Shown piece after piece: positions 9,927 to 22,784 of a stretch of 64,000 bases of DNA. Every line of letters begins with the position of its first letter. Within the stretch, counting starts at the first letter, position 1. A program made the translations under genes and the position numbers. The notes beneath the pieces are model-generated. The model did not search any database. It saw nothing but the letters and a program-made list of their open reading frames with translations, and was not told the origin of the DNA. Location of the stretch: NCBI RefSeq assembly GCF_009914755.1, contig NC_060939.1; one strand, given 5' to 3'. The stretch is from the human T2T-CHM13v2.0 reference genome, Homo sapiens.

Positions 9927-10046
<120 letters not shown>

Positions 10047-12669: not shown

Positions 12670-12951
<282 letters not shown>

Positions 12952-14992: not shown

Positions 14993-15406
<414 letters not shown>

Positions 15407-16252
15407 TAGCCCTGCCCTCTTTTCCCTTGGGCAAACTACAGTGCCTCCTGGCCCTGGTTTCCCCATCTGTGCAATGAGGGTGTTGGCCCAAACTGAACCC
15501 TGTGACCTTCACAGCCCCGGAGCCAGTGATGCTGTCCATAATCTCTTCCTTACCAGCCCTCTATACCTTGACATTTTTTTTCCATTTTGGAATAAGCCTG
15601 GAACCACCTCCAGACTTTTTTCACAAACATTAAGACATAGGAGCCAAAACTGACTTAATATGAGTTGAACCAGTCAAATCTGGTCAAATAAACCTTCTGA
15701 GGTCATCACAACTTATTTGAGTATGCCAATCTCAAAAGCCTGATATGGGATTCAGTGTTCTGTGGAATCATCAGACAAGCAGGATAGAAGGTTCTAGTAC
15801 TAATCCCTCATTAAAAACAAAATCAGCTCATGATGAAAAAGCCTTAAACGCTGTGATACCCACTGACGTGGTACATAATGGGGCAACCACAGAATGGGGC
15901 ACTAGGCAGCCACTGATAGTTGTGAAGTCTCCATTAGATATGAGGCAACAAAGAAAACCACTCCTGACATATTTCTAGTATATTGCTGAGGGAAATGTTT
16001 CTAGCATATTATTGAGGGAAAAGAAAGGACCGCCCCCCCCCCCCCGCCCATAGCTGCTATAGGCAAGGTGGAAAAGCTAAGACTCATTTCAGGGTAGAGA
16101 GATTAGGGACGCTACCTTTCTTTCCCCAAAATGTTCTTAAATATAGTTGTTACATCTTTTAACACAAACTGTGGCATGCAATTAAAACATAAAACCAGTC
16201 CTGTGAGGCAGAGCTTAGGCAACAGAGGAAGTAAGATTCTTGTTTTTAACAG

Positions 16253-16314
16253 AAAATATCAGGAAGAAAGCAAACGCAGCCCCGAGTGCCCCCAGGAGGT
16301 GCACAGCCATGTAA
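16253..16314 (+). CDS. ANKDD1A: ANKDD1A alternative terminal coding exon (ENIRKKANAAPSAPRRCTAM*), ending in a CaaX box
   Basis: Acceptor ttcttgtttttaacag|AA; a phase-1 join to 15275 gives GRRDLAENIRKK (helix-like); TAA at 16312-16314; non-repetitive sequence. Confidence 0.8.
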
Positions 16315-16559
16315 CCGGAGGGGCCAGACCTTCAGGCACGTGGGACCTCAGCGTGTGGAGCCACCTGAACAGAAGATGACCATCATTTAAGGGCTTTTTA
16401 AAAAATCACTGTTAACAGACCTCCAGGTGATTCTACTGAAATGCACAGTCATGCAGAGCCCAGGAGGCAAATGTTTGTACACTGATCTTTTTCATGAGGA
16501 TGGGTCCAAGGGCCTGTAATCCCGTCCAACAGGTATGGTCCTTTTGAGCTCTTGGCACA

Positions 16560-20715
<4,156 letters not shown>

Positions 20716-20741
20716 TCCCCAGGGATGGGGTGTTCCATCTT

Positions 20742-20890
20742 CTGCCCTGTCCGGCAGAGTAGCTGCTTGCCACCTGAGGCTGTCATGCACCTGAAATGTT
20801 GGCTAGAGGGACTGAGAAGCTGAAATTTCTTATTTCTCATTATTTGAAATTGCAGGCACCCATGGCAAGTGGCATCCATGGTGCTTGGCT
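20742..20890. mobile_element. MER3/MER33-like DNA transposon remnant
   Basis: ctgtcc...gtagc...gccac...tgaaatgttggctag...gactgagaagctgaa pattern. Confidence 0.6.
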
Positions 20891-21652
20891 TTGAGGTGCC
20901 AGGCAAGCACAGCTTGTTCTGGGGCTTGGCTGTACCAGCAGGGGGATGTGTTTCTGGGGAATTGTGGCTCTGGAAGCTTCACGGTTTCCCAGAATGTGGA
21001 AAATATATCTGTGCAGGATAGAAATCCTGCCCAGAGGCTGTTTCTGTCTCATTTGAGCTCTCCTTCATGTGGCAGAGCTGGCTGTGGCGTTTAGGAGCCT
21101 ACATTTTAGAAAAGCTTACCTCAAAGTTCTGCATTGAGCCTGAGACTGGAAAGGAGATAAAATAAAACAGCTGACAGGAGCTTTGGTAGTCACACATGCC
21201 TGATGGGGTGCACAGGGCCACAGTCTCTGAAAGGCAATTTGGCATTGTCTGTCCACAATATACTTTTATCCATTGGTCCAGCAATCCTACTCTAGGAATT
21301 TTTCCTACATATAAACCTGTATGCATACAAAATGATAGACATACAAGGTTATTACTCTGAAAAAGCAAAAGATTGGAAACAAACCAAGTGACTGGCTACA
21401 GGGGACTGGTGAAATAGAGTATGTTCCATCCACACAGTGGAATTCTGTTCAGCAGTGAAAAAAGGATGAGAGTGCTTTCCAAGTGTTGTTATGGAAAGAG
21501 CTCCAGGATAAATTAAGTGGAAAAAAACCCCAAGATACAGGTACATTAAACCGAAGGAAATTGGTTCAGAGGATAGCTGCACCATTTTTAGAGAAAAAGC
21601 TTCCTTTCTCTCTTCACCTTTTGCAGGTGATGTATTTTTTTCTTTGGATTCC

Positions 21653-22272
<620 letters not shown>

Positions 22273-22428
22273 ATCTTTGGATTCTTAAAACTTAAGAAAA
22301 ATTCTAAAACATATTTGTGATCTATTACGTTATGATATATGATAGGGAAAAAATAGACAACTTTACCTACCACTAAGTTATATTTAATCAGCATTCTTTT
22401 GTTTCCTAACATATATGTTGCGAGCTAA

Positions 22429-22784
<356 letters not shown>

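What the first reader, a model, noticed from the sequence alone, without database searches (positions are those of the whole stretch)
16253..16314. Hidden CaaX (prenylation) terminal exon of ANKDD1A: ...RKKANAAPSAPRR-CTAM*
Seen: a strong acceptor (ttcttgtttttaacag) 977 nt after the last death-domain exon splices in phase to give GRRDLA-ENIRKKANAAPSAPRRCTAM-stop. The 6-frame track misses this frame. Established: a terminal Cys-a-a-Met is the farnesyltransferase recognition pattern, upstream basic residues are the usual second membrane signal, and death-domain helix 6 normally continues past GRxDLA. Inference: this is the ancestral C-terminus, making ANKDD1A a lipid-anchored ankyrin/death-domain adaptor. 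The Alu-derived end at 22523 would lose both the helix cap and the anchor, so exon choice could act as a membrane/cytosol switch. Caveat: Ala at a2 is less typical than I/L/V.
Basis: partly seen in the sequence, partly recalled or inferred. Interest (0 to 1): 0.82.

Follow-up and report, generated by a model that had tools for sequence, protein, structure and literature searches.

The report
Conserved CaaX-ending last exon of ANKDD1A
A short exon missing from the human reference model of ANKDD1A is the gene's ancient last coding exon, found from lamprey to mammals, and it ends in a likely lipid-attachment signal that the primate-specific Alu-derived reference ending lacks.

Summary
An AG acceptor lies 977 nt after exon 15144-15275. 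It opens a phase-matched 62-nt coding segment (16253-16314) that reads E-NIRKKANAAPSAPRRCTAM-stop.

The sequence alone is not beyond chance. Conservation settles it. The same roughly 20-residue tail ends ANKDD1A in lamprey, sharks, teleosts, coelacanth, amphibians, reptiles, birds, marsupials and placentals. Of 121 distinct spliced-type tails retrieved across the wider ANKDD1 family, including ANKDD1B and invertebrate homologues, 118 end Cys-x-x-X. X is Met in 80 and Ser in 30. The other 3 are mis-picked read-through or alternative-exon models.

The annotated human ending (22523-22608) lies in a high-copy Alu-type repeat and appears only in primates.

An unnamed spliced contig encodes exactly the window's four exons joined through 15275→16253.

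The Pfam match and an AlphaFold model both place the second half of the last death-domain helix in this exon, followed by a flexible basic linker and the CaaX box.

Farnesylation is strongly implied but was not tested here. I found no paper linking ANKDD1A to prenylation.

How much human tissue uses this exon is open. No canonical poly(A) signal follows within 4.8 kb.

Verdict: real, ancestral, probably a lipid anchor. It is a new member of a known kind.

The parts
15144..15275 (+). Penultimate coding exon of ANKDD1A. It encodes the later death-domain helices and ends ...GRRDLA plus one base (phase 1).
   Evidence: hub annotation; Pfam Death match.
16237..16252 (+). Splice acceptor: pyrimidine-rich tract ttcttgtttttaacag ending in CAG.
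   Evidence: 10 of 16 pyrimidines in my -20..-5 measure and C at -3. Strength was not scored with a trained model.
16253..16314 (+). Conserved terminal coding segment: (G)AA = Glu, then NIRKKANAAPSAPRRCTAM and a TAA stop. It encodes the second half of death-domain helix 6, a flexible basic linker and the CaaX box.
16300..16311 (+). CaaX box codons TGC ACA GCC ATG (Cys-Thr-Ala-Met). The Cys is the predicted farnesylation site.
   Evidence: Cys is present in 118 of 118 conserved-type distinct tails. Ydj1-CTAM ratio is 1.17 in the yeast FTase screen.
16315..16557 (+). Unique sequence after the stop, a putative 3' UTR start. It holds no AATAAA or ATTAAA, only TTTAAA at 16397. Donor-like sites lie at 16424 (CAG|GTGATT) and 16530 (CAG|GTATGG).
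16558..20721 (.). 4.16-kb low-complexity block, 95% pyrimidine on the + strand, immediately downstream of the conserved exon.
   Evidence: C 0.356, T 0.595; masked as repeats in the hub table.
22523..22608 (+). Coding part of the annotated human terminal exon. It reads [32 protein letters not shown] and is derived from an Alu-type repeat.
   Evidence: This tail type is seen only in primates among named hits.

Best explanation
16253-16314 is the ancestral last coding exon of ANKDD1A. It completes helix 6 of the death domain. It then adds a roughly 10-residue flexible linker that ends in two basic residues and a CaaX box (CTAM).

The protein made with this exon is most likely farnesylated on Cys at -4 by protein farnesyltransferase. 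That would tether an ankyrin-repeat/death-domain adaptor to cytoplasmic membrane faces. The modest basic patch (RKK...RR) would act as a weak second signal.

In primates an Alu insertion about 6 kb further downstream supplies a competing terminal exon. The human reference transcript uses that exon. It replaces the helix end and removes the anchor. Human ANKDD1A can therefore exist as an anchor-less form (the reference) and an ancestral CaaX form.

Shown: the exon's anatomy, its deep conservation, its place in the domain, and the Alu origin of the reference end.

Inferred: farnesylation, membrane binding, and any regulated switching between the two forms.
For: 1. Exact in-phase exon.

2. Of the 120 listed mammalian hits, 62 carry the conserved tail and all 62 end C-x-x-M: CTAM 49, CMAM 4, CAAM 3, CTVM 3, CTTM 2, CIAM 1. 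Another 17 carry Alu-type tails: 16 are named primates and 1 is unnamed. The rest are 26 intron read-through models, 3 that end at the exon boundary and 12 other alternatives.

3. Of 70 new cluster representatives, 66 end CxxX, 65 of them with the conserved tail. They include lamprey, three sharks, sturgeon, teleosts, coelacanth, frogs, newt, tuatara, snake, turtles, birds and marsupials. CTAM itself occurs in coelacanth, tuatara, turtle, birds, trout and opossum.

4. Across all retrieved proteins, 169 carry a spliced-type tail, giving 121 distinct tails. Of these, 118 end CxxX. X is Met in 80 and Ser in 30. In 107 of 118 there is a K or R in the three residues before the Cys. In 12 of 118 there is a second Cys within 8 residues upstream; the named ones among these are invertebrates (molluscs, Lingula, a centipede). 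This pattern resembles palmitoylation second signals.

5. I printed 29 of the 120 hits, chosen for death-domain-type names or coverage. Of these, 20 end CxxX. They include amphioxus, starfish, Lingula, molluscs, an annelid, a nemertean, a centipede and a fluke, plus turtle, bird and chinchilla ANKDD1B.

6. Human ANKDD1B (A6NHY2) is listed with the ending CVVS in Table S2 of PMC11152559. CVVS, tested there as a viral sequence, was modified by human FTase in a yeast reporter.

7. In the supplement of PMC10320760, Ydj1-CTAM has a ratio of 1.17. Its neighbours CTAK, CTAP and CTAR score 0.10, 0.17 and 0.15.

8. The Pfam Death match and the AlphaFold model place residues 142-149 in the last helix with pLDDT 88. 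The final 11 residues have pLDDT about 60.

9. P0005, from a 926-nt unnamed contig, equals the window's exons 9930-10028, 12706-12895, 15144-15275 and 16253-16311 joined.
Against: No experiment or proteomic record of prenylation was found for ANKDD1A or ANKDD1B.

The a2 residue is Ala in most vertebrate ANKDD1A tails: 56 of 62 and 60 of 118 distinct tails. This is not the classical aliphatic residue.

The yeast screen used yeast FTase on a Ydj1 reporter. I did not see the column header of the table I read.

The human RefSeq table lists only the Alu-terminated transcript.

After the stop there is no AATAAA or ATTAAA for 4.8 kb (the first is at 21161). A 4.16-kb pyrimidine block starts 244 nt downstream. 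The exon may therefore be poorly used as a terminal exon in humans.

P0005 is identical to the window at protein level but could come from a close ape.

Published work saw tagged ANKDD1A in the cytoplasm. The construct's death domain was numbered 263-399, so it was probably not the CaaX form.
Confidence: 0.75

Rival explanations
1. In humans the exon is a well-preserved relic. The Alu exon has taken over, and transcripts that include 16253 are rare. Alternatively they splice onward from a donor such as 16530, which would leave the stop more than 200 nt before the last junction and make them targets of nonsense-mediated decay. Little or no CaaX protein would then be made in people.
For: The hub annotation lists one transcript, and it is Alu-terminated. 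There is no canonical poly(A) hexamer between 16315 and 21160. A 4.16-kb pyrimidine block begins at 16558. Donor-like CAG|GTATGG lies at 16530. Published human functional work apparently used a non-CaaX form.
Against: The acceptor, frame and stop are intact. The 20-residue human tail is identical to the macaque and gibbon models. P0005 shows a spliced contig with this junction whose 160 residues equal the window's exons. An alternate-terminator event, ANKDD1A|31138|AT, is recorded in a TCGA-based study, although that paper does not say which terminators are involved.
Confidence: 0.3
2. The conserved C-terminal Cys-x-x-X serves a purpose other than prenylation. Examples would be metal or disulfide chemistry, a C-terminal degron, or a docking motif.
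For: No direct lipidation data exist. The a2 residue Ala is atypical.
Against: The Cys sits exactly four residues from the end in 118 of 118 conserved-type tails. The a1 and a2 positions vary freely, X is almost only Met or Ser, and the preceding linker varies in length from 17 to 29 residues. This is the pattern expected of a CaaX box. CTAM and CVVS behave as FTase substrates in reporter systems.
Confidence: 0.08
3. Chance open frame behind a chance AG, with no biological meaning.
For: By sequence alone, CxxX-ending phase-1 frames are not rare in this intron: 3 distinct ones.
Against: The encoded tail is conserved residue by residue across vertebrates and is annotated as the terminal exon in dozens of species.
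Confidence: 0.01

Closest known systems
ANKDD1B (human paralogue, UniProt A6NHY2)
   Same: It shares the ankyrin-repeat plus death-domain architecture. Its tail has the same build: AE-x-IR, a linker, basic residues and CaaX. It ends CVVS in humans and CAVS or CAIS in turtle, bird and chinchilla models.
   Different: Its reference human protein keeps the CaaX box. X is Ser rather than Met and a2 is Val or Ile rather than Ala. In the papers I could search it appears only as a table entry, with no study of its prenylation.
OAS1 p46 isoform (CaaX CTIL)
   Same: Choice of the terminal exon decides whether the protein carries a CaaX box and so whether it reaches membranes. OAS1 P00973-1 is listed with CTIL. 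The biology is recalled, not checked here.
   Different: The OAS1 choice is set by a polymorphic splice site, and X = Leu points to geranylgeranylation (recalled). In ANKDD1A the competing exon is an Alu insertion fixed in primates, and X = Met points to farnesylation.
PPP1R16A/B (MYPT3/TIMAP), prenylated ankyrin-repeat proteins
   Same: These are ankyrin-repeat scaffolds with a C-terminal CaaX box. [quoted passage not shown]
   Different: They have no death domain and are not homologous outside the repeats. ANKDD1 is not named in the passages I saw.
Alu exonisation creating primate-specific protein ends
   Same: The annotated end starts at an AG inside an antisense Alu-type repeat and is confined to primates.
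   Different: Here the Alu exon does not merely add a minor isoform. It is the reference end and displaces a terminus conserved since early vertebrates.
Ras-type hypervariable region (KRAS4B CVIM, HRAS CVLS)
   Same: Both have a flexible C-terminal linker, basic residues or extra cysteines, and a CaaX box (listed).
   Different: The ANKDD1A basic patch is much weaker than that of KRAS4B, and vertebrate tails have no upstream Cys. Weak or endomembrane binding is therefore more likely than strong plasma-membrane binding (inference).

Membership tests
CaaX prenylation substrates (FTase) | Cys exactly four residues from the C-terminus | tested here: met
   CTAM followed by a stop. All 118 conserved-type distinct tails have Cys at -4.
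CaaX prenylation substrates (FTase) | X residue of the FTase class (Met, Ser, Gln, Ala, Cys) | tested here: met
   X is Met in humans and in 62 of 62 conserved mammalian tails. Family-wide, X is Met in 80, Ser in 30 and Cys in 1 of 118. The class definition is recalled.
CaaX prenylation substrates (FTase) | Aliphatic a2 residue (classical rule) | tested here: inconclusive
   a2 is Ala in humans and in 60 of 118 distinct tails, and Val, Ile, Leu or Met in 47 of 118. In the Ydj1 yeast screen CTAM scores 1.17, against about 0.1-0.17 for CTAK, CTAP and CTAR.
CaaX prenylation substrates (FTase) | Accessible, flexible segment before the Cys | tested here: met
   In the AlphaFold model residues 150-161 are non-helical with pLDDT about 60.
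CaaX prenylation substrates (FTase) | Isoprenoid demonstrably attached to the Cys | not testable with these tools
   This needs metabolic labelling or mass spectrometry. I found no report. Supplements of prenylome papers were not searchable as a whole.
Death domain (Pfam PF00531) | Profile match above the curated cut-off and a six-helix bundle | tested here: met
   P0005 scores 30.2 bits against a cut-off of 22.6, covering profile positions 12-85 of 86. The model has six helices between residues 53 and 149.
Alu-derived exon (the annotated human end) | Exon sequence belongs to a high-copy primate repeat and is absent outside primates | tested here: met
   37 copies of its 31-mer occur in the window against 0 expected. 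Of 17 Alu-type tails, 16 are from named primates and 1 is unnamed. The family name Alu is recalled from the sequence's look, not from a repeat library.
Used terminal exon in humans | Junction reads and a poly(A) site | tested here: inconclusive
   One unnamed spliced contig matches the window's exons. There is no canonical poly(A) hexamer within 4.8 kb. No RNA-seq data were available.

The most novel reading that the evidence does not exclude
The ANKDD1 family is an ancient, bilaterian-wide, farnesylated and therefore membrane-tethered death-domain adaptor. Primates have largely unhooked ANKDD1A from membranes by adopting an Alu-derived last exon. If so, human functional work on this 'tumour suppressor' has studied a lineage-specific, anchor-less form with an altered last death-domain helix. 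The ancestral form would persist as a minor, possibly tissue-regulated isoform.
Probability: 0.45. Interest if true: 0.7.

Novelty: new member of a known kind. Interest (0 to 1): 0.58.

Why it matters
ANKDD1A and ANKDD1B are barely characterised death-domain proteins.

A CaaX box conserved across vertebrates and many invertebrates gives a concrete, testable idea of where they act: at membranes. It also tells how to study them. Tags must go on the N-terminus, because C-terminal tags and the human reference cDNA both destroy the signal.

It also gives a clean example of an Alu exon displacing a terminus conserved across vertebrates. That matters for reading human variants, for isoform-level expression studies (an alternate-terminator event of this gene has already been used as a prognostic marker), and for transferring mouse results to humans. 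All 62 conserved-type tails in the mammalian search end C-x-x-M, rat and other rodents among them.

Tried and rejected
Chance ORF: rejected on conservation.

Splice-site strength: no trained scorer was available. My crude pyrimidine count ranks the acceptor as fair, not outstanding: 10 of 16, below my own 12-of-16 filter. I therefore do not endorse 'strong acceptor' beyond the visible T-run and CAG.

First alignment-based protein search: it searched only proteins of 637-2000 residues and was swamped by unrelated ankyrin-repeat proteins. Only 29 of its 120 rows were informative.

Representative search: most of the 150 listed hits were single-exon fragments that end just after the query exon, so they say nothing about the C-terminus.

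Literature: ANKDD1A with prenyl* gave one review where the words are unrelated. ANKDD1A with farnesyl* gave three papers, seen as listings only, whose titles are gene-list studies. ANKDD1A with Alu gave one review that lists a Q/R editing site. CTAM with farnesyl gave only bacterial haem papers. The ANKDD1B query was too loose to isolate that gene.

Model of the Alu-terminated form: it still draws a helix through 415-429, but pLDDT falls to 51 and then 34. The alignment for that tail is shallow (15 primates), so loss of the helix is not shown.

Full report
**The observation**

Exon 15144-15275 of ANKDD1A translates to ...[43 protein letters not shown] and leaves one extra base, G. The next 977 nt are intron. 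The tract ttcttgtttttaacag sits at 16237-16252. From 16253, G+AA gives Glu and the frame continues NIRKKANAAPSAPRRCTAM, then TAA at 16312-16314. The lengths 190+132+62 = 384 nt keep the annotated frame. The stop-to-stop frame is only 31 aa, which explains why a length-filtered view would miss it.

The sequence alone would not be convincing. Of 265 AG sites in the 15276-22522 intron, 12 open phase-1 frames that end CxxX, from three distinct stop contexts. My crude measure gives the acceptor tract 10 of 16 pyrimidines.

**Conservation**

I searched about 5.8 billion proteins with the 43-residue exon peptide. This gave 153 hits at E ≤ 0.01, of which 120 were listed, almost all named ANKDD1A of mammals. 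I classified all 120 by what follows ...RRDLA:

| Class | Count | Notes |
|---|---|---|
| Conserved tail | 62 | 61 tails are 20 residues, one is 19. All end C-x-x-M: CTAM 49, CMAM 4, CAAM 3, CTVM 3, CTTM 2, CIAM 1 |
| Alu-type tail (GWS.../GRS...) | 17 | 16 from named primates, 1 unnamed |
| Read into the intron | 26 | |
| Stop at the exon boundary | 3 | |
| Other alternative ends | 12 | |

Macaque, mangabey, gibbon and squirrel-monkey models exist in both the Alu form and the CTAM form.

A second search used a carp-like fragment (P0136) as query and listed 120 of 229 hits. Of its 70 new representatives, 66 end CxxX, 65 of them with the conserved tail. The other four are read-through or frame-shifted models. 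The species include lamprey (CAMT), three sharks (CAVM), sturgeon, many teleosts, coelacanth, frogs, a newt, tuatara, a snake, turtles, birds and marsupials. CTAM itself is found in coelacanth, tuatara, a turtle, birds, trout and opossum.

The exhaustive representative search listed 150 of 167 hits. Most were single-exon fragments. The full-length ones end in CaaX-like sequences.

From the alignment-based search I printed 29 of 120 rows, those with death-domain-type names or coverage. Of these, 20 end CxxX. They include:

- amphioxus (CAVS)
- starfish (CSIS, CTVS)
- Lingula (CSIS)
- molluscs (CTVS, CLLS, CAVS)
- an annelid (CTVM)
- a nemertean (CVIS)
- a centipede (CSVV)
- a fluke (CRVH)
- turtle, bird and chinchilla ANKDD1B (CAVS, CAIS)

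Pooling everything retrieved gives these counts:

- 169 proteins carry a spliced-type tail, giving 121 distinct tails.
- 118 of the 121 end CxxX. The three exceptions are read-through or alternative-exon models caught by my loose pattern.
- X is Met in 80 and Ser in 30.
- 107 of 118 have Lys or Arg within the three residues before the Cys.
- 12 of 118 have a second Cys within eight residues upstream. The named ones among these are invertebrates (molluscs, Lingula, a centipede).
- Tail length ranges from 17 to 29 residues, with 85 tails at 20.

**Place in the protein**

P0005 is a 161-residue protein from an unnamed 926-nt contig. It matches the window's exons 9930-10028, 12706-12895, 15144-15275 and 16253-16311 joined end to end. 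A spliced sequence with the 15275→16253 junction, identical to the window at protein level, therefore exists in public data. It could be human or a very close ape.

Pfam's Death profile matches P0005 at residues 71-147, profile positions 12-85 of 86, with 30.2 bits. In the Alu-ended P0004 the match stops at ...RRDLA, profile position 79, with 23.9 bits.

An AlphaFold model of P0005 used a 67-sequence alignment and has mean pLDDT 88.0. It shows six helices from residue 53 to 149. The last is 138-149, that is RDLA plus ENIRKKAN. Block 141-150 has pLDDT 88, and the final 11 residues have about 60 with no secondary structure. Eight of the twelve residues of the last helix therefore come from this exon, followed by a flexible linker and the CaaX box.

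A model of the gorilla Alu-ended form, whose tail is identical to the human one, still draws a helix at 415-429. Its pLDDT falls to 51 (residues 421-430) and then 34, and residues 427-446 are all under 50. The alignment for that tail is shallow, so this is suggestive only.

**The annotated end**

The exon at 22523-22608 reads [28 protein letters not shown]. Its last 31 bases recur 37 times in the window with up to 3 mismatches, against none expected. This shows a high-copy repeat. I recognise it as antisense Alu from memory, not from a repeat library.

**Is the Cys farnesylated?**

This was not tested here. The pattern fits a CaaX box and little else. The Cys is fixed at -4, a1 and a2 vary, X is nearly always Met or Ser, basic residues sit just upstream, the linker is disordered, and the named tails with extra cysteines are invertebrate.

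From papers I saw the following:

- In PMC10320760 (passages and supplement parts 89 and 131), the table of Ydj1-CXXX frequencies gives CTAM a ratio of 1.17. CTAK, CTAP and CTAR score 0.10, 0.17 and 0.15. I take this ratio to be the paper's enrichment factor, but I did not see the header.
- The same paper's text gives 0.41 and 0.49 for the canonical CVIA and CVLS, and 1.61 for CASQ. This is yeast FTase on a reporter.
- In PMC11152559 (passages and supplement part 3), Table S2 lists human ANKDD1B (A6NHY2) among proteins ending CVVS. CVVS, tested as a viral sequence, was modified by human FTase in yeast.
- In PMC1847700 (passages), PRENbase names PPP1R16 in a cluster with other ankyrin-domain proteins. 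ANKDD1 is not named there.

**Not in print, as far as I could search**

- ANKDD1A with prenyl*: one review, in which the words are unrelated.
- ANKDD1A with farnesyl*: three papers, seen as listings only, with unrelated titles.
- The four-term search found no paper combining ANKDD1A with the prenylation terms among its top rows.
- CTAM with farnesyl: only bacterial haem papers.

Supplements are not covered by these searches, so prenylome tables may hold hits I cannot see.

**Human usage**

The hub table lists one RefSeq transcript, and it is Alu-ended. After the stop there is no AATAAA or ATTAAA until 21161, only TTTAAA at 16397. A 4,164-nt block that is 95% pyrimidine starts at 16558. Donor-like sites lie at 16424 and 16530.

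The exon may therefore be a weak terminal exon in humans. It may instead be spliced onward, which would put the stop far upstream of the last junction and invite decay (inference).

A TCGA-based study lists an alternate-terminator event, ANKDD1A|31138|AT (PMC8034091, passages). It does not say which ends are involved.

The main functional paper (PMC6318269, passages) numbers the death domain 263-399 and sees tagged protein in the cytoplasm. Entries of 399 aa in my hits are Alu-ended apes (P0007, P0039). The CaaX form was therefore probably not the one studied (inference).

**Comparison and verdict**

The anatomy works like a Ras-type C-terminal anchor attached to an ankyrin/death-domain scaffold. 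The exon choice resembles other genes in which the last exon decides whether a CaaX box is present (OAS1 p46, recalled).

- The exon is real and ancestral: confidence about 0.97.
- Farnesylation of the form that carries it is likely: about 0.75.
- Meaningful use in human tissues is open: about 0.6.

This is a new member of a known kind. The exon is already in many species' gene models, but I found no published account of the ANKDD1 family as CaaX proteins, or of the primate Alu replacement.

I had no vertebrate genomic alignments, RNA-seq junction data, Ensembl or UniProt isoform tables, or prenylation predictors.

Noticed in passing
window 16558-20721: A 4,164-nt block that is 95% pyrimidine on the + strand (C 0.356, T 0.595) begins 244 nt after the conserved stop codon. 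It may have displaced the ancestral 3' UTR and poly(A) site. Its age in the primate lineage is unknown.
   Followed up: partly
window 16424 and 16530: Donor-like sites CAG|GTGATT and CAG|GTATGG lie 110 and 216 nt after the stop. If either is used, the 16253 exon would be internal and the transcript a likely target of nonsense-mediated decay.
   Followed up: no
window 16033-16052: A run of C residues (ccgccccccccccccccgccc) lies in the intron about 200 nt upstream of the acceptor.
   Followed up: no
window 22523-22608 (probable): A review table lists a Q/R A-to-I editing site in ANKDD1A (PMC11995373, one passage). The Alu-derived coding end has three Gln codons and is a natural place for it, but the position was not given.
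   Followed up: no
P0277, P0279, P0286, P0288, P0292, P0296: Several turtle, bird and fish gene models fuse DNA polymerase kappa domains to an ANKDD1B-like protein. This suggests the two genes are neighbours and are often merged by gene predictors.
   Followed up: no
P0119, P0447: Some read-through gene models translate the homologous terminal exon in the wrong frame (RKY..K...VH.HVT, matching the window's other frame 16107-16379). This shows that the exon's nucleotide sequence is conserved in those species too.
   Followed up: partly
P0023 (Eulemur), P0030/P0057 (Macaca), P0014/P0017 (colobines): Alu-type tails differ markedly between primate groups: GWSAVASS in a lemur, GWSAVAGSRL... in macaques, GRSTTARSQL... 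in colobines. More than one Alu exon, or rapid drift, may be involved.
   Followed up: no
P0204, P0205, P0226, P0232, P0236, P0238, P0254, P0257, P0258, P0275, P0283, P0291: These homologues (the named ones are molluscs, Lingula and a centipede) carry a second Cys 2-8 residues before the CaaX Cys. The arrangement resembles palmitoylation second signals.
   Followed up: partly
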